Source: Dehalococcoidia bacterium (GTDB taxonomy: Bacteria; Chloroflexota; Dehalococcoidia; Lucifugimonadales; UBA3495). Taken from it: a stretch of 64,000 bases of DNA. The stretch lies in the NCBI GenBank assembly GCA_034428795.1, contig DAOUHF010000131.1, forward strand, positions 24,382 through 88,381, written 5' to 3'. Shown here piece by piece: positions 2,350 through 31,302 of this stretch. The notes below the pieces were generated by a model. It was not told where the DNA came from, did not search any database, and worked only from the letters and a program-made list of their open reading frames with translations. A program made the position numbers and the translations under genes. Positions within the stretch are counted from its first letter, which is position 1. Each line of letters begins with the position of its first letter.

Positions 2350-3693
2350 TTAGGTGGGCAGGCCCTTCTCCCAGTCGGGAAGCAGTTCGTGCTTGGTGGA
2401 CGGCAACGCGATTATCGAAACGACGCCGATCAGGCTGAGGATCAAAGACAGGGCCATGGTGGCGTCGAAGTTGCCGGTCAAGTCCCTGAGTTGCCCGCCG
2501 ACCAGCGCCCCGGCTGCCATGCCGAAACCGGCGCCCATCATCTGCCAGCCGTAGGTGGTCCCGATAGGCGCGCCGCCGTAGTACTGGCGGTTGATGATTG
2601 GGAATGCGCTCATCTCGCCGCCGAACCCGATGCCGAAAAGGACGGCAAACAGGTAGAAGTGCCAAGGGTCGTGGGCAACGAACAAAAGGACGATGGGGAC
2701 GGTCTGCAGGAAAAAGCACACTCCCATAGCCCCCTTGCTGCCCATCCGGTCGGATGCCACGGGAACCACGAACCGGGTTATGGTGCTCACCACGGAGAGG
2801 GTAACAAAGGCCCCGGCAGCCAGGCCCTTGGATACTCCCTCGGTCTCTGCGATTGCCACCAGGTAGACCAAGACGATGGCGTGGCCGGCGCAACCCCAGA
2901 AATGAATGCCGATGAGGTTCCAGAAAGCACCGGTGCGCTGGGCCTGCTTGAGGAACACCCTGGTCCGGACCTTGGCGATCTCGCCCTTCTGCATCTCCCT
3001 TATGGGCTCGTCTCCAGACGCTCCCAAGGGGCGGAGACCGACTTGGGCGGGCTCGTTGTAGAAGAACCGCACCAAGAGCAAGAGGATAACTCCGCCGAAG
3101 ATGCCCGGCACCCAGAAGGCCGCCCGCACTCCTTCGATGCCGCCGCCGAACAGATCGATGATCCACAACATGACGGGCACTGCCACCAATGGCCCGACGC
3201 CCTGCGCCGATTGCAGCAGGCCCATTCCGGTACCCAGATGCCTGCGGAACCAGAGGGTTACCGCCGCCGTCAACGGCACCTGGAACAGGCCCATGGAAGC
3301 GCTTAAGATGACGCCGAAGAACAGGTAGAACTGCCACAAGCTGTTCATCATGCCGGTGAGCACCATGCCCACCACGAACAGGACCGCGCCCAGCGTCATC
3401 GCCGTGCGGACGCCGTGCCGGTCGCCCAGCCAGCCGGCCGACGGGCCCAGCAGTCCGGAAACGATCCACTGAAGGGCGAATCCGAAGCCGACTGCCCCGT
3501 AGCTCCAACCAAAGGAATCGACCAAACGGGGAATCAGGATACTGGAGGAAGACCGGAAAGAGGAACTGGCCAACCGCATCACGGCGGCAACGGCCACGAT
3601 CACCCAAGCGTAGTGGAACTCGCGGCCGCCTACAATTACGTTGTCGGGCTTCAGGGAAAAGGCCTTGGAAAAGACTGACATCAGCCTTGACAA
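2350..3693 (-). CDS. MFS transporter
   Basis: 447-aa polytopic hydrophobic protein with a two-halves MFS-like layout and a GDRHG-type loop motif (WLGDRHGVRTA). Confidence 0.7.
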   Translation of the reverse strand: MSRLMSVFSKAFSLKPDNVIVGGREFHYAWVIVAVAAVMRLASSSFRSSSSILIPRLVDSFGWSYGAVGFGFALQWIVSGLLGPSAGWLGDRHGVRTAMTLGAVLFVVGMVLTGMMNSLWQFYLFFGVILSASMGLFQVPLTAAVTLWFRRHLGTGMGLLQSAQGVGPLVAVPVMLWIIDLFGGGIEGVRAAFWVPGIFGGVILLLLVRFFYNEPAQVGLRPLGASGDEPIREMQKGEIAKVRTRVFLKQAQRTGAFWNLIGIHFWGCAGHAIVLVYLVAIAETEGVSKGLAAGAFVTLSVVSTITRFVVPVASDRMGSKGAMGVCFFLQTVPIVLLFVAHDPWHFYLFAVLFGIGFGGEMSAFPIINRQYYGGAPIGTTYGWQMMGAGFGMAAGALVGGQLRDLTGNFDATMALSLILSLIGVVSIIALPSTKHELLPDWEKGLPT

Positions 3694-3861: not shown

Positions 3862-6800
3862 ATGGCTTCGTCTCTTGCTCATATTGGGCGTTCTACGCAG
3901 TTGCCTGATGTCAGGTCTTACTCACGTATCCCACAGGTGCTCGACGTCCCGAACCTCATCCAGAGCCAGATCCAGTCCTACGACTGGTTGAAGAACGACG
4001 GGCTCGCGGAAGTATATCAGGAAATATCGCCCATAGCGGATTACACCGGTAAGAAATACGACCTCCACTTCCAGGGACACTACTTCCGGGACCCCAAGTA
4101 TTCGCCCCAGGATAGCAAGGAGCGCGAAATCACTTTCGCCCAGCCTCTCTACGTCAAGACCCGACTGGTAATGAAAGAGACAGGCGAAATCAAAGAGCAA
4201 GAAATATTCATGGGAGATATTCCCATGATGACCCACAACGGCACGTTCATTATTAATGGCGCCGAACGGGTGGTTGTGAGCCAACTGGTGCGCTCGCCGG
4301 GTATCTATTTCGTCTACGAGCGGAACACGGCCAGCAACCGGAACCTGTGCTTCGCCAAGCTGATCCCCTCGCGGGGGGCCTGGCTGGAGTTCGAGACCAG
4401 CAGCAAGGACGTGCTCTCGGTTAAGGTCGACCGCAAGCGCAAGGTCTCGGCCAGCACCTTCCTGCGGGCGTTGGGCGTGGCCGACGATGAAGTCATGCTC
4501 TCCATGTTCAGCGACATCGACACCGACGAAAATCACAAGTACATGCAGTCGACCCTGGAACGCGACTCGGTCATCGAAACCAAAGAGATCTCCTTCAAAG
4601 AGGACGACCTCAAGTCCCTCTGGGAATGGCTGCACCCCGACGATGAGTACAACGGCGAGGCGGCCCGCCGGATTGCCGCCGCCCAGGTGGAGTTCTACCG
4701 GCGGCTGCGTCCCGGTGAACCTCCCAGCCTGGAGAACTCGCGCACCCTGATCCGAAACCTGTTCTTCAGCGCCCGCCGTTACGATCTGGGCCGCGTGGGC
4801 CGGTACAAGCTGAACCGCCGGCTGGGGATGCCCGCAAATGCCGAACTGATGACCCTGACCCTGGAAGACGTGGTACAGGTGATCCGCACTATGATCCGCA
4901 TCAACCAGGGAGACGGCCGCCCTGATGACATCGACCATTTGGGCAACCGGCGGGTCCGGGCCGTAGGAGAGTTGGTGCAGAACCAGGTCCGGGTCGGCTT
5001 GCTCCGCATGGAGCGAATGGTCAAAGAAAAGATGACGCTGGTTGACCCGGAAACCGCGGCTCCCCAGGGGCTGGTCAACATCCGCCCGGTGGTCGCCGCG
5101 GTACGCGAGTTCTTCGGCGGCTCTCAGCTTTCCCAATTCATGGACCAGACCAATCCGCTGGCGGAGTTGACCCACAAGCGGCGCCTTTCCGCACTGGGCC
5201 CCGGCGGCCTTTCCCGCGAACGGGCCGGGTTCGACGTCCGGGACGTTCACTTTTCCCACTACGGCCGTATCTGCCCCATAGAAACCCCGGAAGGGCCCAA
5301 CATCGGACTGCTCAGCACCCTGGCCTCCTACGCCAGGGTGAACCCGTACGGGTTCATCGAATCGCCCTACCGGCGGGTATTGCACGAGTTGCCCAAGGAC
5401 TCCCCTGACCTCAAGGGGCGCACCGTCACCGAGGCGGTGATGGACACCGCCGGCGGGACCATCGTGGGCCGTGGACGCGCCATTGGCGCCAACAAGATCA
5501 ACGCCATCGGGCGGCTGCCCGACGGCGCCATGATCAAGGTCCAACCATTCGTAGCCTCCGGCGCCTATGACGTAATCTATCTTTCGGCCGACCAGGAAGA
5601 GGACTTCAGAATAGCCCAAGCCAACGCCAAGCTCGACGACCTCAACCAGTTCATGGAAGAAAAAGTTGAGATCCGGGCTGGTGACCATTACACCCAGGAG
5701 CCGCCGAACCTCATCGAGTTCATGGACGTTTCGCCGATGCAGATCATGAGCGTGTCGGCGGCGTTGATACCGTTCCTGGAGCACGACGACGCCAACCGGG
5801 CCTTGATGGGTTCCAACATGCAGCGCCAGGCCGTCCCGTTGCTACGGCCCCAGGCGCCCACCGTGGGCACCGGGATCGAGGGCCGGGTGGCCCGCGACAG
5901 CGGCCAATTGGTGACCGCCAGCGCCGCCGGGGTGGTCACCTCGGTGAACGGCCGGGACATCACTATCACCGACGAGGAGGGCGTGGGCCACCCCCACCCG
6001 CTCATCAAGTTCTCCCGGACCAATCAAGGCACCTGCTTCGACCAACGCCCCATCGCCACCAAGGGCGACGTGGTGGAGGTGGGTACGGTGCTGGCCGACA
6101 GTTCCTCCACCAACAACGGCGAACTGGCCTTGGGCCAGAACGTGTTGGTGGCCTTCATGTCGTGGGAAGGCTACAACTACGAAGACGCCATCATCGTCAG
6201 CGAACGCCTTTACCGGGACGACTACTTCACCTCCATCCACATTGAAAAGCACGAGATGGAGGCCCGGGAGACCAAGCTGGGACCCGAGGAGATCACCCGG
6301 GACATCCCCAACGTGGGCGAAATCAGCCTCCGGGACCTGGACGAGCGGGGGATCATCCGCGTCGGCGCCGACGTTGGACCCGGAGACATCCTGGTAGGCA
6401 AGGTCACCCCCAAGGGCGAGACCGAGTTGACCGCCGAGGAGAAGCTGCTGCGGGCCATCTTCGGCGAGAAGTCCCGCGACGTTAAGGACACCTCCCTTCG
6501 CGTTCCTCACGGCGAGCGGGGCAAAGTCATCGACGTGAAGGTCCTGAACCGGGAGAACCGGGACGACCTCTCCCCCGGCGTCAACGAAGCCGTCCGTGTC
6601 TGGATCGCGCAGACCCGGAAGATATCGGTGGGCGACAAGATGGCCGGCCGCCACGGCAACAAGGGCGTGGTGGCGCGGATACTGCCGGAAGAGGATATGC
6701 CCTATCTGGCCGACGGCACGCCCGTAGACATCATTCTCAACCCCATCGGCGTGCCCTCCCGCATGAACTTGGGGCAGGTCCTGGAAACCCACTTGGGGTG

Positions 6801-7637
6801 GGCCGCCCGCGGCTTGAATTTCCGGGCCAACACCCCGGTGTTCGACGGCGCTCGGGACGCGGCCGTGGAAGACGCCCTGGCCAGGGTGTGGTTCGCCGAG
6901 AAGGCCGGGGCTTCCAGTGTCACCAACGGCGAAGGCCCGCCCAACGTCGACTATTCAAGGGTCGACGAGTGGCTCACCGAACGTGGATACAACCCGGTGG
7001 ACGTCTTCGACCAAGACAAGATTGGACTGGCCCAGGAAGCCTGTCTCCGAATGTGGCTCACCGAGGAGGCCGGACAGGATACGGCCGGTATGGACCTGGA
7101 ACAGCTTTACAAGCTGGCCCTCGTGGTGCACCGGGAGCAGCGGATCGCTCCGCCGACCTTCGGCAAGTTCGAGCTTTACGACGGAAGGAGCGGTGAAACC
7201 TTCGACCAACTGGTGACCGTCGGCAGCATCTACATTCTCAAGCTCATCCACTTGGTGGAGGACAAGATTCACGCCCGTTCCACCGGACCGTACTCGATGA
7301 TCACCCAGCAGCCCCTGGGCGGAAAAGCCCAGTTCGGCGGCCAACGGTTCGGCGAGATGGAAGTCTGGGCCCTGGAAGCGTACAGCGCGGCCTACAATCT
7401 GCAGGAGGTGCTTACCGTCAAGTCCGATGACGTGGCCGGCCGGGTGAAGACCTACGAAGCCATTGTCAAGGGCGAGCCCATTGGCCAGCCCGGCGTGCCC
7501 GAATCATTCAATGTTTTGTTGAAGGAGTTGCAGAGCCTTGGCTTGGCCGTTCAGTTGCTCAACGAGGAGAACCGGCCGCCCTTGACCCAGGGAATCTCTG
7601 GGGATACCGAGCTATTTCAGCCGCTGGAGGCGATTTA

Positions 7638-7638
<1 letters not shown>
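3862..7638 (+). CDS. rpoB: DNA-directed RNA polymerase subunit beta
   Basis: 1258 aa with canonical blocks ([48 protein letters not shown]). Confidence 0.98.
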
Positions 7639-12003
<4,365 letters not shown>

Positions 12004-25354: not shown

Positions 25355-28300
25355 GTGTATATTTCGTATATGCCCACATATCCACATATCGAACGCTACC
25401 ACGCCGACAAGCAGCGGTTTATTGAGTTCGGCGGCTCTGACCAAGAGCAGAGCATACGGCGCGCTTTTGCCGTTTGCCTCGACTCCTATTGCCGCGAACA
25501 CCGGGAAAAGCTGGCCTTGGTGGACGAGTTGGAAGCCCGGCTCCACAACCGCCCCGACGGCACGGTGAAAGACTCCCTCCGTATGGACCGGGGCCACTGG
25601 GAGGCCAAAGACACCCACGACGACCTGGACGCCGAAATTCAGCACAAGTTCAACCGGGGCTACCCCCAAGACAACATCCTCTTTGAAGACTCGCAGACCG
25701 CGGTCTTGATTCAGAACCGGGAAGAGGCGATGCGGGCCGACATGTCCCGCCCTGGTGATCTCCACCGGCTCATACGCGCCTTCCTGGACTACGAGCTGCC
25801 TCAAATCGAGGAGTTCCGCCAAGCGCAGCAGCAATTCAAAGCCGACCTGCCGGCCGTCATCAGCAATCTGCGGGAGGCGGTCGAAGCGGCGGAAGCGAGC
25901 AACCCCGATTACCAGGCGGCCGCCGCCGATTTCCTGGAGCTATGCCAGCAGACCATCAGCCCCGCCGTATCCGCCGGGGACATCCGGGAGATGCTGCTGC
26001 AACACGTCCTGACCCAAGACATCTTCCTGCGGGTGTTCGCCGAGGACCAGTTCCACCGAGAAAACAACGTCGCCCGCCGGCTCGACGCCCTGGAGCAGAC
26101 CTTTTTCACCGGCGACCTGCGCCGGAACGCCGTCGACCGCCTCCGCTTTTACTACGGGGCCATCGGCCGGGCCGCCGACGAGATTGCCGACTACGCCGAG
26201 AAACAGCAATTCCTGAAGGCCATCTACGAAGACTTCTACAAGGCCTACAACCCCGCCGCCGCCGACCGCTTGGGGGTAGTCTACACCCCCAACGAGATCG
26301 TGGACTTCATCATCCGCGGCGCGGACTACCTGCTGCAAAAACACTTCGGCCGGAGCCTGGCCGACGACAACGTGCAGATTCTCGACCCGGCAACCGGCAC
26401 CGGCACGTTTGTCACCAACCTGATCAACTACTTGCCAGAAGACCGTTTGGAGCACAAGTACCGGAAGGAGATACACGCCAACGAAGTGGCGATTCTCCCC
26501 TACTACATCGCCAACCTCAACATCGAATACACCTACCGCGAGAAGATGGGGCGGTACCTGGAGTTCCCCAACCTGTGCTTCGTGGACACGCTGGACAACA
26601 TGGACTGGCAGCAGGCCGGCGCCACCGGCGGCGCCGTCCAGCGGCAGGGGGCCATGAACCTGGGCGGCCTCTCCGAAGAAAACTGGATTCGCATCCAGGA
26701 GCAGAACGAAAAGACCATCAGCGTCATCATTGGCAACCCGCCGTACAACGCCAATCAACAGAACGAAAACGATAACAACAAGAACCGCGAATACCCGGCC
26801 ATAGACCGTCGCATCAGCGAGACCTACATCGCCGCCAGCACGGCGCAGAAGACCAAACAGTACGACATGTACAAGCGGTTTATCCGGTGGGCATCCGACA
26901 GGCTGGCCGACGACGGGATTATCGGGTTCATCACCAATCGCGCGTATATAGATGCAAAGCAGGACGACGGGTTTAGACAAGTTGCCGCCAAGGAGTTTAC
27001 TGACATCTATATCTTGGACTTGGGCTCGGATGTACGCCGCAATCCCAAGATTTCGGGGACGATGCACAACGTCTTCGGCATCCAAACGGGGGTAGCAATC
27101 TGCTTCTTCGTGCGTAGCGGTACCAAACCCCGCGACTGCACAATTAGCTACGCTCTACGCGAGGACAGCGAGCTTGCGACGGATAAACTCGCCTATTTGC
27201 GACAGGCCTGCTTGGACGATATTCCTTTTGAAAACATCACGCCCGACCAGAAAAACAACTGGCTCAACCAGTCCAATAGCGACTTCAACCGGCTGCTTCC
27301 CTTGGCCAACAAGGAGACCAAACTTTCCAAGACTGCTGATGCCGAGCAGGCGGTCTTTAGCCTCTATTCAATGGGTGTTGTCACTAATCGTGACGAATGG
27401 ACTTACGCTTTTGATGAGAATACGGTTTCTGATAGAGTCTATTTCTTTTGCAGAACTTATCGGGACGAAATGCACCGATTTGCGACTGAGAAACCCGACC
27501 CTGGTTCAATCGGCGATTGGGTGGACAGGTCTATCAAATGGACTTCGGAATTGGAGATCCATTTGCTGAAAGGGGATGCCCTTGATTTCACGACTACGAG
27601 CATAGTCCCCGCGTTACACAGGCCATTTGTCGCCAAGTATTGCTACTATGCCCCCATCATCACCCATCGCAGGTATCAGCAGCCACAGATTTTCCCGCAC
27701 GGGGTCGACGCCCGGAACAAAGTGCTCTGTTTTACCGCCGCAGGCTCCAATAGAGATTTTCACGTATTAGCCGCCGCCAAACTCGTTGACCTCCATCTTA
27801 CCGGCGACACCCAATGCCTCCCCCTCTATCGCTACACGGCGGAGGGCGAGCGCATCAGCAACATCACCGAATGGGGTATCCGGCTTATCAACGAACACTA
27901 CCGCAAGGAGTGGGGCAAGGACTTCGACGGCATCTATCCGGACACGGGCATCACTGCCGAGCACATTTTCGCCTACACCTACGCGGTGCTCCACGACCCG
28001 GTTTACCGCTACGATTACGCCGTCGACCTGTTGCGCGAGTTCCCCCGCCTTCCCCTCTACCACGACTTCGACATCTGGGCGCGGATGGGCCAGAAGCTGC
28101 TCGACTTGCACATCGGTTTCGAGTCCGCCGAACCGTACTCCCTTCAGCGGAACGACCAGGCTGGCGCCCCAACTCGAGTGATTCTGCGCCCCGACAAGGA
28201 ACGCGGCGTCATCGTGCTGGACGACAAGACCACGCTGAGCGGAGTGCCGCCCGACGCCTGGCGCTACCGGTTGGGCAGCCGCTCGGCCCTGGAATGGGTG

Positions 28301-28606
28301 CTCGACCAATACAAGGAGCGCAAGCCGAAGGACCCGACCATCGCCGAGAAGTTCAACACCTACCGCTTCGCCGACTATAAGGAGCGCGTAATCGACCTGC
28401 TGCAACGGGTCTGCACCGTCAGCGTCCAGACGATGGACGTGGTGGACGATATGGCCTATTGGGAAGGCGACAACCTGATAGTATTCGGCGACCGGGACAA
28501 GCATGAATTGGCTATGCTGGCCCTTGCCGACTGGGCTAGCCGAGATGAGAAAGAGGACGAAGAATGGTTGGCCGGTTGGGTTGAGGAATGGTCGGAGACA
28601 TCGTAA
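25355..28606 (+). CDS. Single-polypeptide type IIG / type ISP-like restriction-modification enzyme (N6-adenine methyltransferase with an N-terminal PD-(D/E)xK-like motif)
   Basis: 1083 aa. SAM motif ILDPATGTGTF, catalytic GNPPYNANQ, ISP-type C-terminal region (YDMYKRFIRWASDRL..GFITNRAYID, ALEWVLDQYK). N-terminal ...RPDGTVKD...GHWEAKD..DDLDAEIQHKFNRGYP. Start is GTG 25355 or ATG 25370. Confidence 0.75.
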   Translation: MYISYMPTYPHIERYHADKQRFIEFGGSDQEQSIRRAFAVCLDSYCREHREKLALVDELEARLHNRPDGTVKDSLRMDRGHWEAKDTHDDLDAEIQHKFNRGYPQDNILFEDSQTAVLIQNREEAMRADMSRPGDLHRLIRAFLDYELPQIEEFRQAQQQFKADLPAVISNLREAVEAAEASNPDYQAAAADFLELCQQTISPAVSAGDIREMLLQHVLTQDIFLRVFAEDQFHRENNVARRLDALEQTFFTGDLRRNAVDRLRFYYGAIGRAADEIADYAEKQQFLKAIYEDFYKAYNPAAADRLGVVYTPNEIVDFIIRGADYLLQKHFGRSLADDNVQILDPATGTGTFVTNLINYLPEDRLEHKYRKEIHANEVAILPYYIANLNIEYTYREKMGRYLEFPNLCFVDTLDNMDWQQAGATGGAVQRQGAMNLGGLSEENWIRIQEQNEKTISVIIGNPPYNANQQNENDNNKNREYPAIDRRISETYIAASTAQKTKQYDMYKRFIRWASDRLADDGIIGFITNRAYIDAKQDDGFRQVAAKEFTDIYILDLGSDVRRNPKISGTMHNVFGIQTGVAICFFVRSGTKPRDCTISYALREDSELATDKLAYLRQACLDDIPFENITPDQKNNWLNQSNSDFNRLLPLANKETKLSKTADAEQAVFSLYSMGVVTNRDEWTYAFDENTVSDRVYFFCRTYRDEMHRFATEKPDPGSIGDWVDRSIKWTSELEIHLLKGDALDFTTTSIVPALHRPFVAKYCYYAPIITHRRYQQPQIFPHGVDARNKVLCFTAAGSNRDFHVLAAAKLVDLHLTGDTQCLPLYRYTAEGERISNITEWGIRLINEHYRKEWGKDFDGIYPDTGITAEHIFAYTYAVLHDPVYRYDYAVDLLREFPRLPLYHDFDIWARMGQKLLDLHIGFESAEPYSLQRNDQAGAPTRVILRPDKERGVIVLDDKTTLSGVPPDAWRYRLGSRSALEWVLDQYKERKPKDPTIAEKFNTYRFADYKERVIDLLQRVCTVSVQTMDVVDDMAYWEGDNLIVFGDRDKHELAMLALADWASRDEKEDEEWLAGWVEEWSETS

Positions 28607-28902
28607 TCACCCCAGTTCCGTACACCGATCTAAGCGGTGTTAAAATCAGACCGGCTGTTGTGTTAGCTGATGTGGGGATGGGTGACTGGATCCTATGCGA
28701 GATAACAAGCAGTAATCAAAGCCGGCCTCAGAACGTTCAACTCACCCAGCAAGACTTGCGAGCAGGATCATTACGACAAGACAGCGTGGCGCGTCCGGAC
28801 CGGATTTACGCGTTGAACCAACGGCTCTTCAGGAGGATTGTTGGTCAGCTAACGGACGTCAAGCGTGACGAAATCCTCGACTCCGTCCGGTCCCTGTTCT
28901 AA
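28588..28902 (+). CDS. mazF: MazF/PemK-family type II toxin (endoribonuclease)
   Basis: MVGDIVITPVPYTDLSGVKIRPAVVLADVGMGDWILCEITSS...VARPDRIYALNQRLFRRIVGQLTDVKRDEIL. It overlaps the RM gene 3' end by 19 nt. Confidence 0.8.
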   Translation: MVGDIVITPVPYTDLSGVKIRPAVVLADVGMGDWILCEITSSNQSRPQNVQLTQQDLRAGSLRQDSVARPDRIYALNQRLFRRIVGQLTDVKRDEILDSVRSLF

Positions 28903-29366
28903 TGTCTCGGTTTGGCTGGAGCCGTACCGCAGCGGGCAGCCCCAACCACTAGCAGCCCCTTGTTGGGTTGATATATACTCCCTGCGGCTTTTGAAGTTAA
29001 CTTTCCCCGCGCGTTTGCCGTGCGGGCGAGCTTGATCTGGAGTGAGCAGCTAGGATGCGTATACCGGGCAGGCGCGCCGGCCAGGCCGTTCTGGGCTTGG
29101 TCCTCGTTGGACTTATCCTCCTTTCCACCGTGGCCAGCCACGGTTGCACCGTCAGGGGCTCCAGCCCGGCCGGCGACGGACCCGTGGCCTCGTCTTCGTA
29201 GTTTCCCCATCGAAGTTTCCCGACCGAAGTTTCCCCACCGTAGCTGACCAAAAACCGCCCGGACCCGCCAGTTGAGCGGTTTCTGGGCCCTATTTCACCG
29301 GACCGAACCGGACCGGACTCCCGGGACCAGAAACTATCCAATCGGCGCAATCCCCGTTCCAGGGTA

Positions 29367-30787: not shown

Positions 30788-31234
30788 GTGCCAACTTTCG
30801 TTAACCCGAATCAATGCAACGCCTGCCAGGATGAGCACCTCGGCCCCCTCTGCGTCTACATCTGCCCCAATGACCTGATGGTGCTGGACCCCGAGATCAA
30901 CAAGGGCTATAACCAGGAGCCCGACATGTGTTCGGAGTGCTTCGCCTGCGTCAAGCTCTGTCCACAGGAGGCCATCCACGTTCGCGGCTATGCGGACTTC
31001 GTGCCGTTGGGCGCCTTGGTCCAACCCCACCGCACCGATGATGGGCTCCGGTGGGAAGTGGTCTTCCGGGATGGCCGCCAATTCGAGTTCACCTACCCGT
31101 CCCGGACCCGGCCGGCCGGCTCGGTGGCGCCTTACCAGGGGTTTACCGAAGACCAGGTAAACGATCTGGGCAACCAGTCTCTGGCCGGAGACTCGGTGTG
31201 GCTGGGCGTCGACCGGTTGCCGACGCCCCAGTAG
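30788..31234 (+). CDS. aprB: Adenylylsulfate (APS) reductase beta subunit
   Basis: MPTFVNPNQCNACQDEHLGPLCVYICPNDLM...CSECFACVKLCPQEAI (two 4Fe-4S motifs). GTG start. Confidence 0.9.
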   Translation: MPTFVNPNQCNACQDEHLGPLCVYICPNDLMVLDPEINKGYNQEPDMCSECFACVKLCPQEAIHVRGYADFVPLGALVQPHRTDDGLRWEVVFRDGRQFEFTYPSRTRPAGSVAPYQGFTEDQVNDLGNQSLAGDSVWLGVDRLPTPQ

Positions 31235-31302
31235 CGGACGTCCCAGCAGCGGACGCCCCAGTAGCGGACGTCCCAGCAGCGGACGCCCCAGCAGCGGACG
31301 CT
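31228..31302. repeat. 15-bp x 5 tandem repeat in the aprB-aprA spacer
   Basis: CCAGTAGCGGACGTC / CCAGCAGCGGACGCC alternate five times. The first unit contains the aprB TAG stop. Confidence 0.9.

What the first reader, a model, noticed from the sequence alone, without database searches (positions are those of the whole stretch)
28451..28902. MazF toxin gene overlaps the end of a 1083-aa restriction-modification gene whose acidic Trp-rich tail looks like a fused antitoxin
The MazF/PemK toxin gene (28588..28902) has no separate upstream or downstream antitoxin ORF. Its ATG lies 19 nt inside the 3' end of the RM gene.

The last ~50 aa of the RM protein read MAYWEGDNLIVFGDRDKHELAMLALADWASRDEKEDEEWLAGWVEEWSETS. 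This segment follows what looks like the normal end of the ISP-type C-terminal region (...LLQRVCTVSVQTMDVVDDM). It is acidic and Trp-rich, like the toxin-binding C-terminal tail of MazE-type antitoxins.

Hypothesis: the antitoxin's DNA-binding domain has been replaced by a whole RM enzyme. This would couple RM integrity or proteolysis to MazF release, as a combined RM and abortive-infection system or an RM addiction device.
Basis: inference. Interest (0 to 1): 0.72.

Follow-up and report, generated by a model that had tools for sequence, protein, structure and literature searches.

The report
Restriction enzyme carrying MazF antitoxin tail
A DNA-cutting defence enzyme in a Dehalococcoidia genome ends in a 50-residue extension that tracks the overlapping MazF toxin gene across about 40 related genomes, so the restriction enzyme itself most likely serves as the toxin's antidote, an arrangement I could not find described.

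Summary
An intact 1083-aa restriction-modification (RM) gene (25355..28606) overlaps a 104-aa MazF gene (28588..28902) by 19 nt. No separate antitoxin gene or RNA was found.

The RM enzyme is a close homologue of the solved type IIL enzyme DrdV, not a helicase-bearing type ISP enzyme. DrdV, LlaGI and LlaBIII all end at the position of window M1033. Residues 1034-1083 are therefore a true extension.

Among 81 related Dehalococcoidia loci:
- 38-39 have both the tail and an overlapping or abutting MazF
- 36 have neither
- 4 have the tail with a lost or truncated MazF
- 2-3 have MazF with a damaged tail (Fisher p about 5e-15)

The tail evolves with MazF and not with the RM core (partial Mantel r 0.52, p 2e-4). 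It is under purifying selection and is predicted with low structural confidence.

Sister RM genes carry a different tail, about 75% identical to the C-terminal half of a free-standing antitoxin, followed by a ParE toxin. The nearest MazF relatives outside RM genes pair with a 73-aa antitoxin that has the same overlapping gene-junction design.

Best reading: the tail is an antitoxin module fused to the RM enzyme. Physical binding and the trigger for toxin release are untested. I found no published precedent.

The parts
25355..28606 (+). Single-chain type IIL/IIG restriction-modification gene (DrdV-like), 1083 aa from the GTG at 25355. The probable true start is the ATG at 25370.
   Evidence: ORF. 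DrdV 7LO5 E=1.2e-298 over residues 15-1033. PADLOC REase_MTase_IIG E=6.7e-279. Pfam ISP_coupler, N6_Mtase/Eco57I and Type_ISP_C. Homologues start MPTYPHIERY.
25397..25894 (+). N-terminal PD-(D/E)xK nuclease domain (residues 15-180), with motif RPDGTVKD...GHWEAKD.
   Evidence: Aligns to DrdV residues 9-176 at E=4e-39, with PDG and ExK conserved. The motif is present in 38/38 tail-bearing and 28/28 MazF-less full-length homologues.
26207..27022 (+). N6-adenine methyltransferase domain (residues 285-556) with the NPPY motif.
   Evidence: Pfam N6_Mtase and Eco57I. NPPY is present in all 66 full-length homologues checked.
27353..28453 (+). Target-recognition domain plus terminal helix, ending at M1033. 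This is the family's normal C-terminus.
   Evidence: Pfam Type_ISP_C covers residues 667-1015. DrdV, LlaGI and LlaBIII alignments end at the position of M1033 or a few residues beyond. AF2 predicts a long helix for query residues 205-233, which are RM residues 1005-1033.
28454..28603 (+). The 50-aa C-terminal tail (A1034-S1083), the proposed fused antitoxin module. Predicted elements: beta-hairpin AYWEGDNLIV (28454-28483), helix 28496-28537, and an acidic Trp-rich helix EDEEWLAGWVEEWSET (28559-28600).
   Evidence: Absent from solved homologues. Conserved in many homologues. Co-occurs with MazF and co-evolves with it. Under purifying selection in the RM frame. AF2 secondary structure, with pLDDT falling from 69 to 35.
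28588..28606 (+). 19-nt overlap of the RM 3' end with the MazF start. The toxin ATG is built from the last base of a Glu codon plus TG of the Trp codon in ...EEWSETS*.
   Evidence: The homologous overlap is 16 nt in 28 non-redundant related loci. The same design is seen in free-standing antitoxin-MazF pairs.
28588..28902 (+). MazF/PemK-family endoribonuclease toxin gene, 104 aa.
   Evidence: Pfam PF02452 E=6e-10. The family profile hits S. aureus MazF at E=4e-4. AF2 pLDDT is 93.8 and the top Foldseek hits are all MazF, TM 0.72-0.81. R21 is invariant and T40 nearly invariant.
28943..29366 (.). Conserved non-coding spacer upstream of sat. It marks the downstream edge of the RM-MazF cassette and holds no antitoxin.
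   Evidence: About 93% identical to L086, although the cassette itself is much more diverged. Indels of 28, 10, 2 and 1 nt. No Pfam match and no Rfam match.

Best explanation
The RM gene and mazF form a two-gene hybrid of a restriction-modification system and a type II toxin-antitoxin system.

Proposed mechanism:
- The RM protein is an apparently active DrdV-like type IIL enzyme. Its last 50 residues (a hairpin, a helix, and an acidic Trp-rich helix) act as a fused antitoxin segment. This segment binds the MazF dimer and blocks its RNA-binding groove, as the disordered C-terminal tails of MazE-type antitoxins do.
- mazF translation is coupled to RM translation through the 19-nt overlap. Toxin is therefore only made where tail is made.
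- If expression stops, the flexible tail would be degraded or outlived by MazF, which then cleaves RNA and arrests the cell. Expression could stop through loss of the locus or through phage-induced shut-off.
- My favoured consequence is addiction. A single-chain enzyme that has nuclease and methylase in one polypeptide cannot easily kill cells after gene loss in the classical way. A toxin/antitoxin pair would supply that killing. A possible secondary role is abortive-infection back-up.

Shown: the anatomy, the conservation, the tail-MazF co-occurrence and co-evolution, the absence of any other antitoxin, and the parallel ParE variant.

Inferred: physical binding, tail lability, and the trigger for toxin release.
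For: Anatomy and family assignment:
- The tail is an extension beyond the family's C-terminus.
- MazF has the MazF fold, and the Arg/Thr that align with the conserved RP and T positions of solved MazF are retained across 40 homologues 41-64% identical to the window protein. This argues for a live toxin.
- Nuclease and NPPY motifs are intact in all 66 full-length homologues, so the tail rides on working enzymes.

Co-occurrence, in 81 non-redundant Dehalococcoidia loci:
- 38-39 have tail + MazF, 36 have neither, 4 have the tail with MazF lost or truncated, and 2-3 have MazF with a damaged tail. Fisher p=5e-15.
- This asymmetry (antidote without toxin tolerated, toxin without antidote rare) is what a toxin-antitoxin pair predicts.
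- Every MazF-clade context inspected sits directly after such an RM gene.
- Two independent loci have lost about 620-640 N-terminal RM residues yet keep the target-recognition domain, tail and MazF.

Co-evolution and selection:
- Tail and MazF distances correlate at r=0.52. The partial correlation controlling for the adjacent 230-aa RM core is 0.52 (p=2e-4). Tail versus core is 0.08.
- Tails with an inserted acidic linker pair with MazF proteins that have a 3-aa longer loop: 11/11 against 3/26 (my tally from the table).
- Tail codons show purifying selection in the RM frame. Entropy by codon position is 0.58/0.42/1.03.
- AF2 gives a hairpin plus two helices with pLDDT falling to 35, as expected for a segment that folds on binding.

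No alternative antitoxin:
- No ORF or RNA candidate was found.

Parallels in the same RM family and beyond:
- Five sister RM genes end in a different tail whose sequence is about 75% identical to the C-terminal half of a free-standing antitoxin in L082. A ParE toxin gene starts on their stop codon.
- The nearest non-RM MazF relatives (39-45% identity) follow a 73-aa antitoxin ending ...AEDWNRPEEDAAWSHL. The toxin start and antitoxin stop sit in the same overlapping design, differing by a 12-nt indel.
- Pairwise similarity of the window tail to that antitoxin's C-terminal half gives z=3.1, p=0.006.
Against: - There is no direct evidence of binding or neutralisation.
- There is no detectable homology to MazE or any Pfam antitoxin family.
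- Profile comparisons of the tail with the 73-aa antitoxin family are not significant: hhalign E=0.23, and the HMM score is no better than for shuffled tails.
- Tail and MazF are adjacent DNA. Shared history as a recombining cassette could give the co-occurrence and distance correlation without physical interaction.
- The loci are phylogenetically non-independent, and they are the 80 most similar to the query. The Fisher and indel statistics therefore overstate independence.
- An antitoxin anchored to a 120-kDa enzyme may not be labile, and classical release needs lability.
- L066 has an intact MazF behind a tail with a stop codon and a frameshift. It comes from an assembly type in which I saw 1-nt indels in a related contig (L090).
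Confidence: 0.75

Rival explanations
1. Intragenic antitoxin. The tail is the antidote, but it acts as a separate 51-57-aa peptide. It would be made by internal translation initiation at M1027 or M1033, or by proteolytic clipping, as the small RpnS proteins are made from within rpn genes. The full-length RM enzyme would not itself hold MazF.
For: - A Met sits exactly at the junction and is invariant in the tail alignment.
- The window has a GGTGGA stretch 5 nt upstream of the M1033 ATG, with a duplex energy of -8.0 kcal/mol against the anti-Shine-Dalgarno sequence.
- Gene callers have produced 51- and 57-aa stand-alone tail ORFs in some assemblies.
- There is precedent for intragenic antitoxins: Zhong et al. 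2023, cited in PMC12707154.
Against: - The same Met is conserved in tail-less homologues and in DrdV, so it belongs to the RM fold.
- Shine-Dalgarno-like pairing upstream of it is no stronger in tail-bearing loci (mean -5.8 kcal/mol) than in tail-less or MazF-less loci (-6.6).
- Synonymous sites upstream are not constrained.
- The 57-aa ORF call (L090) comes from an assembly in which 1-nt indels split the RM gene.
Confidence: 0.12
2. MazF is a recruited subunit rather than an addiction toxin. The tail docks a MazF dimer onto the RM enzyme to form an integrated defence complex. The RNase would be released or switched on when the enzyme meets unmodified DNA or a phage anti-restriction protein. 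This would be PrrC-like guardian logic.
For: - The association is strict and old, and the enzymes are intact.
- DrdV-type enzymes multimerise on unmodified DNA before cutting (bioRxiv 10.1101/2021.01.06.425610). That offers a conformational trigger.
- In the PrrC-EcoprrI precedent, an RM enzyme keeps an RNase latent until phage T4 Stp inhibits the enzyme (PMC12707154 and bioRxiv 10.1101/2024.01.29.577857).
Against: - Nothing in the sequence distinguishes this from simple addiction.
- The target-recognition domain, tail and MazF survive after the nuclease and methylase halves are lost. That fits addiction better than a sensor role.
- The module is not seen on viral contigs. In the window it lies among housekeeping genes rather than in a defence island.
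Confidence: 0.08
3. The tail is an RM-intrinsic feature, for example an oligomerisation or regulatory element. MazF would be neutralised by something else in trans, or would be harmless. The linkage would reflect only a shared mobile cassette.
For: - There is no significant homology of the tail to known antitoxins.
- Adjacency alone could give the co-occurrence and correlated distances.
Against: - The tail is absent from the solved homologues DrdV, LlaGI and LlaBIII and from the tail-less homologues, whose nuclease and NPPY motifs are intact.
- The tail decays when MazF is lost (L021, L032, L034, L035, L055, L059, L067).
- MazF conserves its catalytic residues.
- The ParE variant shows that this RM C-terminus does accept sequence matching a free-standing antitoxin.
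- No other antitoxin candidate is conserved.
Confidence: 0.04
4. Artefact. A sequencing or assembly error removed a stop codon or shifted the frame, fusing a small antitoxin gene to the RM gene in this window.
For: Related long-read metagenome assemblies do contain 1-nt indels (L090).
Against: The same in-frame fusion, with the conserved 16-19-nt overlap, occurs in about 40 independent genomes and in many metagenome contigs.
Confidence: 0.01

Closest known systems
MazE-MazF (and Kis-Kid, EndoAI-EndoA) type II toxin-antitoxin systems
   Same: - The toxin is a MazF/PemK-fold endoribonuclease with the conserved Arg and Thr.
- The proposed antidote is an acidic, Trp-containing, low-confidence C-terminal segment encoded immediately upstream. 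It is translationally coupled to the toxin.
   Different: - There is no separate small antitoxin and no AbrB- or RHH-type DNA-binding or dimerisation domain. The neutralising segment hangs on a 1033-residue RM enzyme.
- No sequence homology to MazE is detectable.
Unannotated 73-aa antitoxin + PemK modules (MIRTVEA...AEDWNRPEEDAAWSHL family; loci L093, L094, L097-L099)
   Same: - These carry the nearest MazF relatives found outside RM genes (39-45% identity).
- The junction design is the same. The toxin start codon is formed across the Ala-Trp codons of ...AAWS..., and the antitoxin stop lies inside the toxin's G(D/E)VV codons.
- There is a weak local similarity, HE.A.L...W..PE.D..W, with p=0.006.
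   Different: - It is a free-standing 73-aa protein with its own N-terminal half.
- The overlap is 28 nt, against 16-19 nt here.
- Profile-level similarity to the RM tail is not significant.
PrrC-EcoprrI (and the wider 'RM guardian' idea)
   Same: An RM enzyme is the physical keeper of a latent RNase toxin, and the RM and toxin genes are genetically welded together.
   Different: - PrrC is an ABC-ATPase anticodon nuclease embedded in a multi-subunit type IC hsd operon.
- It has no antitoxin-like tail.
- Its trigger (T4 Stp) is known. Here the trigger is unknown.
DrdV / MmeI-type single-chain type IIL RM enzymes
   Same: The domain order (nuclease, helical connector, methyltransferase, target-recognition domain) matches, with very strong sequence similarity to DrdV over residues 15-1033.
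   Different: DrdV ends five residues after the position of M1033 (aligned to residue 1024 of 1029). It has no tail. The paper I read on it mentions no partner toxin.
Rpn-RpnS intragenic antitoxins, and cis-fused toxin-antitoxin proteins (CapRel, EzeT)
   Same: The antidote's coding sequence is part of a larger defence gene rather than a gene of its own.
   Different: - In Rpn the small protein inhibits the very protein it is nested in.
- In CapRel and EzeT the toxin and antitoxin are on one chain.
- Here the toxin is a separate gene, and the host protein is an unrelated RM enzyme.

Membership tests
MazF/PemK toxin family | Sequence match to the family model above the curated threshold | tested here: met
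   PF02452 at 39.7 bits against a 23.1 cutoff, E=6e-10. The profile of 40 homologues hits S. aureus MazF at E=4e-4 and B. subtilis EndoA at 0.012.
MazF/PemK toxin family | SH3-like barrel MazF fold | tested here: met
   AF2 pLDDT 93.8. All listed Foldseek PDB hits are MazF-family toxins, TM 0.68-0.81.
MazF/PemK toxin family | Catalytic Arg (RP motif) and Thr/Ser retained | tested here: met
   R21 is invariant, and P22 and T40 are nearly invariant in 40 homologues. They align with the RP and T positions of S. aureus MazF. Their catalytic role is taken from established knowledge of MazF.
MazF/PemK toxin family | Ribonuclease activity and toxicity | not testable with these tools
   Needs expression and an RNA cleavage assay.
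Canonical type II MazEF toxin-antitoxin system | A separate small antitoxin gene next to the toxin | tested here: not met
   The upstream gene is the 1083-aa RM enzyme. No conserved small ORF lies upstream, downstream or in another frame.
Canonical type II MazEF toxin-antitoxin system | Antitoxin homologous to MazE/AbrB/RHH families, with a DNA-binding domain | tested here: not met
   No Pfam hit for 30 tails. hhalign against E. coli MazE gives probability 0.15%.
Canonical type II MazEF toxin-antitoxin system | Antitoxin and toxin genes overlap or abut (translational coupling) | tested here: met
   19-nt overlap in the window. In relatives: 16 nt in 28 non-redundant loci, 4 nt in three, 37 nt in one, or a gap of 2-4 nt.
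Canonical type II MazEF toxin-antitoxin system | Antitoxin binds and neutralises the toxin; antitoxin more labile than toxin | not testable with these tools
   Only indirect support: co-occurrence, co-evolution and a low-confidence tail in AF2.
Type IIL/IIG single-chain RM enzymes (DrdV-like) | Nuclease, connector, methyltransferase and target-recognition domain on one chain, with PD-ExK and NPPY motifs | tested here: met
   DrdV E=1.2e-298. Nuclease alignment. Pfam and PADLOC matches. Motifs present.
Type IIL/IIG single-chain RM enzymes (DrdV-like) | Chain ends with the terminal helix of the target-recognition domain | tested here: not met
   There are 50 extra residues beyond the end of DrdV, LlaGI, LlaBIII and the PADLOC model.
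Type ISP RM enzymes (LlaGI/LlaBIII) | RecA-like ATPase/translocase domain between the nuclease and the methyltransferase | tested here: not met
   The window protein aligns to LlaGI only from its residue 587, and to LlaBIII only from its residue 751. There is no helicase Pfam hit. The N-terminus aligns to the DrdV nuclease and runs straight into the connector.
RM-guardian systems (PrrC-EcoprrI type) | Toxin held inactive by the RM enzyme and released by a phage anti-restriction factor | not testable with these tools
   Known only from the literature for PrrC.
RM-guardian systems (PrrC-EcoprrI type) | ABC-ATPase anticodon nuclease embedded in a type I hsd operon | tested here: not met
   The toxin is MazF, and the RM enzyme is single-chain type IIL.
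Intragenic antitoxins (Rpn/RpnS type) | Small antidote translated from an internal start within the larger gene | tested here: inconclusive
   A junction Met is present, but it is also conserved in tail-less homologues. There is no enrichment of Shine-Dalgarno-like sequence and no synonymous-site constraint.

The most novel reading that the evidence does not exclude
The C-terminus of this Dehalococcoidia type IIL RM family is a general docking platform for toxin-neutralising peptides. MazF-specific tails of several subclasses and a ParE-specific tail have all been grafted onto it. The RM enzyme would then act as the sensor of a combined restriction and abortive-infection device. Engaging unmodified DNA, or being hit by a phage anti-restriction protein or protease, would free the toxin. 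That would make it a single-polypeptide analogue of PrrC-EcoprrI, built from type II toxin-antitoxin parts.
Probability: 0.25. Interest if true: 0.9.

Novelty: new variant of a known kind. Interest (0 to 1): 0.78.

Why it matters
RM systems and toxin-antitoxin systems are the two classic 'addictive' defence modules of prokaryotes. They are normally separate genes that merely cluster together.

Here the antidote function appears to be physically built into an RM enzyme. This has happened with at least two toxin families, and the arrangement has been kept across dozens of species.

If confirmed, it would:
- give a simple, testable case of direct RM-toxin coupling
- explain how a single-chain RM enzyme, which cannot readily kill after gene loss the classical way, could still make itself hard to lose
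- add 'RM enzyme as antitoxin carrier' to the known toxin-antitoxin architectures
- show that annotation pipelines will call such MazF and ParE genes 'orphan toxins'
- bring to notice a 7000-member antitoxin family that has no Pfam model

Tried and rejected
- **Independent family of tail-like antitoxins.** phmmer of the 57-aa tail against 1.8 billion representatives gave only 15 hits. The 14 I read were all RM-derived fragments.
- **Pfam scan of 30 tails.** Nothing was found.
- **hhalign of the tail profile.** Not significant against E. coli MazE, against single 73-aa antitoxins, or against their 36-member profile. An HMM of the 73-aa family scores real tails no better than shuffled ones. Only a pairwise local alignment is mildly significant.
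- **P0127** (RM N-terminus joined directly to the tail). I considered it as a 'mini-antitoxin' produced by deletion. I rejected it as evidence because it lies on a 1.5-kb scaffold with a run of Ns, lacks the acidic end, and has no MazF start.
- **P0121** (57-aa free tail ORF). It is explained by 1-nt indels in a long-read assembly.
- **P0124** (tail-MazF in-frame fusion). It is degenerate and was not used.
- **Lengths of the hits.** All top 120 hits are under 500 aa. I did not read this as widespread RM truncation, because the genome loci are mostly full length.
- **Viral contigs.** No relatives were found.
- **Promoter scan.** Nothing was found.
- **Rfam.** Nothing was found.
- **Complex prediction.** I did not submit an artificial tail-linker-MazF chimera to structure prediction, because the tool is limited to native window or database sequences. 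No complex model was obtained.
- **Literature.** Searches for an RM-fused antitoxin found no precedent.
Full report
**What is in the window**

An ORF at 25355..28606 (+) encodes 1083 aa. A 104-aa ORF at 28588..28902 (+) starts 19 nt inside it. The small ORF is a MazF/PemK toxin:
- It matches Pfam PF02452 at 39.7 bits against a 23.1-bit cutoff.
- A profile of 40 homologues hits S. aureus MazF and B. subtilis EndoA.
- AlphaFold2 gives pLDDT 93.8, and all listed Foldseek PDB hits are MazF-family toxins at TM 0.68-0.81.
- R21 is invariant and T40 nearly invariant among homologues that are 41-64% identical to the window protein.

The large ORF matches the solved type IIL enzyme DrdV (7LO5/7LVV, 1029 aa) at E=1.2e-298 over residues 15-1033.
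- Its N-terminus aligns to the DrdV nuclease, with PDG...ExK conserved.
- PADLOC calls it a type IIG restriction enzyme-methyltransferase.
- It has no helicase. [quoted passage not shown]
- DrdV is described as nuclease, helical connector, methyltransferase and target-recognition domain, and it multimerises on unmodified DNA to cut (bioRxiv 10.1101/2021.01.06.425610).

**The tail is a real extension**

DrdV, LlaGI, LlaBIII and the PADLOC model all stop aligning at or within a few residues of window M1033. That leaves A1034-S1083 unmatched. AlphaFold2 on the last 283 residues predicts three elements after the terminal helix:
- a beta-hairpin (RM residues 1034-1043)
- a helix (1048-1061)
- an acidic Trp-rich helix (1069-1082)

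pLDDT falls from 69 to 35 over this stretch. This is the behaviour expected of a segment that orders only on binding a partner.

**It is not a one-off**

A protein search with the last 283 residues returned many homologues with the same tail: MAYWxGDxLIVFGDRDKHEWxMLGLSxWFSEPEDxEWxxxW(S/L)E(T/M/I). A scan of one genome per GTDB species gave 572 confirmed relatives. The best 80 are all Dehalococcoidia, Chloroflexota or SAR202 metagenome-assembled genomes. The window therefore probably comes from a Dehalococcoidia genome.

I ran tblastn with the window RM and MazF proteins against these loci. Among 81 non-redundant loci:
- 38-39 have an intact tail and a full MazF.
- 36 have neither. This group includes the five ParE-type loci described below.
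- 4 have an intact tail but a truncated or lost MazF. L014 keeps 19 codons, L047 keeps 29, and L046 and L073 keep none.
- 2-3 have MazF behind a damaged tail. In L040 both are decaying. L066 has a stop codon and a frameshift in the tail.

Fisher's exact test gives p=5e-15. The loci are not phylogenetically independent, and they are the ones most similar to the query. Seven further RM genes keep only the hairpin part of the tail and have no MazF, which looks like decay after toxin loss.

The MazF start position follows the tail subclass:
- It overlaps the RM end by 16 nt in 28 non-redundant loci with tails ending W(S/L)E(T/M/I). The window overlap is 19 nt.
- It overlaps by 4 nt or lies 2-4 nt downstream in subclasses ending ...LPDIRxxxx or ...MPDIxxxx.
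- It overlaps by 37 nt in one subclass.

**The reverse test**

The MazF protein search found only 67 relatives. Every context I inspected lies directly behind such an RM gene. One of them, L086, is syntenic with the window: xanthine-dehydrogenase-like gene, RM, MazF, then sat-aprBA.

In two independent lineages the N-terminal 620-640 residues of the RM enzyme are gone, yet the target-recognition domain, tail and MazF persist (L001-L004 and L006). This is what one expects if the 3' end cannot be lost while the toxin is alive.

All 38 full-length tail-bearing RM genes and all 28 full-length MazF-less ones keep the nuclease and NPPY motifs. The tail therefore rides on what look like working enzymes.

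**Co-evolution and selection**

- Across 36 pairs, tail distance correlates with MazF distance at r=0.52. The partial correlation controlling for the adjacent 230-aa RM core is 0.52, with p=2e-4 from 5000 permutations. Tail versus core is only 0.08.
- Tails with an inserted acidic linker (DDDPEYQ, NELEVSSEW or NDLEVE types) pair with MazF proteins whose loop after the RPxxV strand is three residues longer. This holds for 11/11 such pairs against 3/26 others (my tally from the table). It reflects perhaps three independent events.
- In one genome with two such pairs, the RM cores are 83% identical, the tails 56% and the MazF proteins 50%.
- Tail codons are under purifying selection in the RM frame. 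Entropy by codon position is 0.58/0.42/1.03, compared with 0.34/0.25/0.95 for the core.
- Adjacency could produce part of these signals if the tail and MazF move together as a cassette.

**No other antidote**

- The 460 bp between mazF and sat is about 93% identical to L086, although the cassette itself is far more diverged. Its indels of 28, 10, 2 and 1 nt show that it is non-coding.
- The ORFs there, and the alternative-frame ORF across the tail, have no Pfam match.
- Rfam finds nothing.
- Downstream regions of 42 loci share only syntenic housekeeping neighbours.

**Two natural parallels**

First, five sister RM genes (L051, L056, L074, L080, L082) end instead in ...DPDEGLEFRxEFxxEMExxMxSxEPTIPAEEVYRRLGLE. 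A ParE toxin gene (PF05016, E=2.3e-8) begins on their stop codon. In L082 a free-standing 74-aa antitoxin plus ParE pair lies immediately downstream. By my reading, its C-terminal half is about 75% identical to that RM tail. This RM C-terminus has therefore demonstrably captured part of a sequence that also exists as a free-standing antitoxin.

Second, a MazF-seeded metagenome scan found five loci:
- two more RM-tail-MazF loci
- two loci (L093, L094) where a 39-45% identical MazF follows a 73-aa protein, MIRTVEA...ETALLSEAALAEDWNRPEEDAAWSHLQPGK
- one distant MazF behind a DUF2281 antitoxin

That 73-aa family has 7254 database hits and no Pfam domain. It sits before PemK toxins with a 28-nt overlap.

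Its junction has the same design as the RM junction:
- The toxin start (A/G)TG is made from the last base of the preceding codon plus TG of the Trp codon in ...(A)AWS....
- The antitoxin stop lies inside the toxin's G(D/E)-V-V codons.
- The RM version is 12 nt shorter.

Part of this, the W-S residues, is forced by the toxin's M-V codons. I therefore treat it as suggestive of common descent, not as proof.

Sequence similarity of the tail to this family is weak:
- Pairwise local alignment of HELAML--ALA-DWASRDEKEDEEW with HETALLSEAALAEDW-NRPE-EDAAW gives z=3.1, p=0.006 against shuffles.
- hhalign of the two profiles gives E=0.23.
- An HMM of the family does not separate real tails from shuffled ones.
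- There is no detectable homology to E. coli MazE or to any Pfam family.
- A phmmer search of 1.8 billion representatives with the tail found only RM-derived fragments.

**Internal initiation**

The junction Met is invariant, but it is equally conserved in tail-less enzymes and in DrdV. Shine-Dalgarno-like pairing upstream is no stronger in tail-bearing loci than in tail-less or MazF-less loci (-5.8 against -6.6 kcal/mol). Synonymous sites there vary freely. A separately made tail peptide is therefore possible but unsupported. It would not change the conclusion that the tail is the antidote.

**Mechanism**

Most likely (confidence about 0.75), the tail is a cis-fused antitoxin segment that binds the MazF dimer. 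mazF is translated by coupling to the RM gene. MazF is freed when tail supply stops or the tail is degraded.

My favoured consequence is stabilisation of a single-chain RM gene. Classical post-segregational killing relies on separate restriction and modification activities declining after gene loss (PMC2853133). It is my inference that a single polypeptide cannot exploit this. Abortive-infection back-up would be a second possibility.

A PrrC-EcoprrI-like guardian role is not excluded. In that reading the RM enzyme senses phage interference or unmodified DNA and releases the RNase. This is the most novel reading.

Binding, lability and the trigger are all inferred.

**Novelty**

Full-text searches for RM-fused antitoxins, MazF with type ISP/IIG enzymes, and Dehalococcoidia toxin-antitoxin/RM links found no description of this architecture. 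The parts are known: a type IIL RM enzyme, MazF, ParE, and antitoxin tails. The wiring appears to be new.

I rate it a new variant of a known kind, with interest 0.78.

Noticed in passing
L051, L056, L074, L080, L082 (for example L082 3628-6831 RM, 6831-7094 ParE, 7159-7383 antitoxin, 7383-7640 ParE): The same RM family also occurs with a different C-terminal tail followed by a ParE toxin gene that starts on the RM stop codon. In L082 a free-standing antitoxin + ParE pair sits right beside it, and the antitoxin's C-terminal half is about 75% identical to that tail.
   Followed up: partly
L093 about 3290-3510, L094 about 1640-1860, L097-L099 1501-1722: A 73-aa protein family (MIRTVEA...AEDWNRPEEDAAWSHL) has 7254 database hits and no Pfam domain. 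It sits directly upstream of PemK/MazF toxins with a 28-nt overlap. It appears to be a large unannotated antitoxin family.
   Followed up: partly
window 28943-29366: The non-coding spacer upstream of sat is about 93% identical to L086, although the RM-MazF cassette there is much more diverged. The cassette seems to be exchanged between conserved flanks (a xanthine-dehydrogenase-like gene and sat-aprBA). The spacer holds a 14-nt tandem repeat (29200-29240) with 2.9 copies here and about one in L086.
   Followed up: partly
window 31222-31301: A 15-nt (30-nt period) tandem repeat of about 5.3 copies lies at the 3' end of the APS-reductase beta-subunit gene and in the aprB-aprA spacer.
   Followed up: no
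window 27000-28000: GC content drops to 0.50-0.54 over the target-recognition domain of the RM gene, against 0.62-0.66 in the flanks. This is consistent with a horizontally exchanged specificity domain.
   Followed up: no
L024 and L028 (both from genome OZ242258.1): One genome carries two RM-tail-MazF pairs. The RM cores are 83% identical, but the tails are only 56% and the MazF proteins 50% identical. This would be expected if paralogous pairs must avoid cross-talk, or if cassettes are swapped.
   Followed up: partly
window 28454-28603 compared with L090 about 4020-4170: Against a 95%-identical relative, by my count from the alignment, the 50 tail codons carry about 8 amino-acid replacements (including W to L) while the 104 MazF codons carry 3. 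L090 also shows 1-nt indels that split its RM gene, as I would expect of long-read assembly errors.
   Followed up: partly
L002 1-4200: The truncated RM (target-recognition domain and tail) + MazF locus lies next to several IS/transposase genes and a GmrSD-type gene, so it looks like a defence or mobile-element hotspot. In the window the cassette sits among housekeeping genes.
   Followed up: no
L070 7012-7155: A fragment resembling a RelE/YafQ-type toxin lies about 260 nt downstream of a tail-less RM gene. The 3' flank of this RM family may be a general landing site for toxin-antitoxin modules.
   Followed up: no
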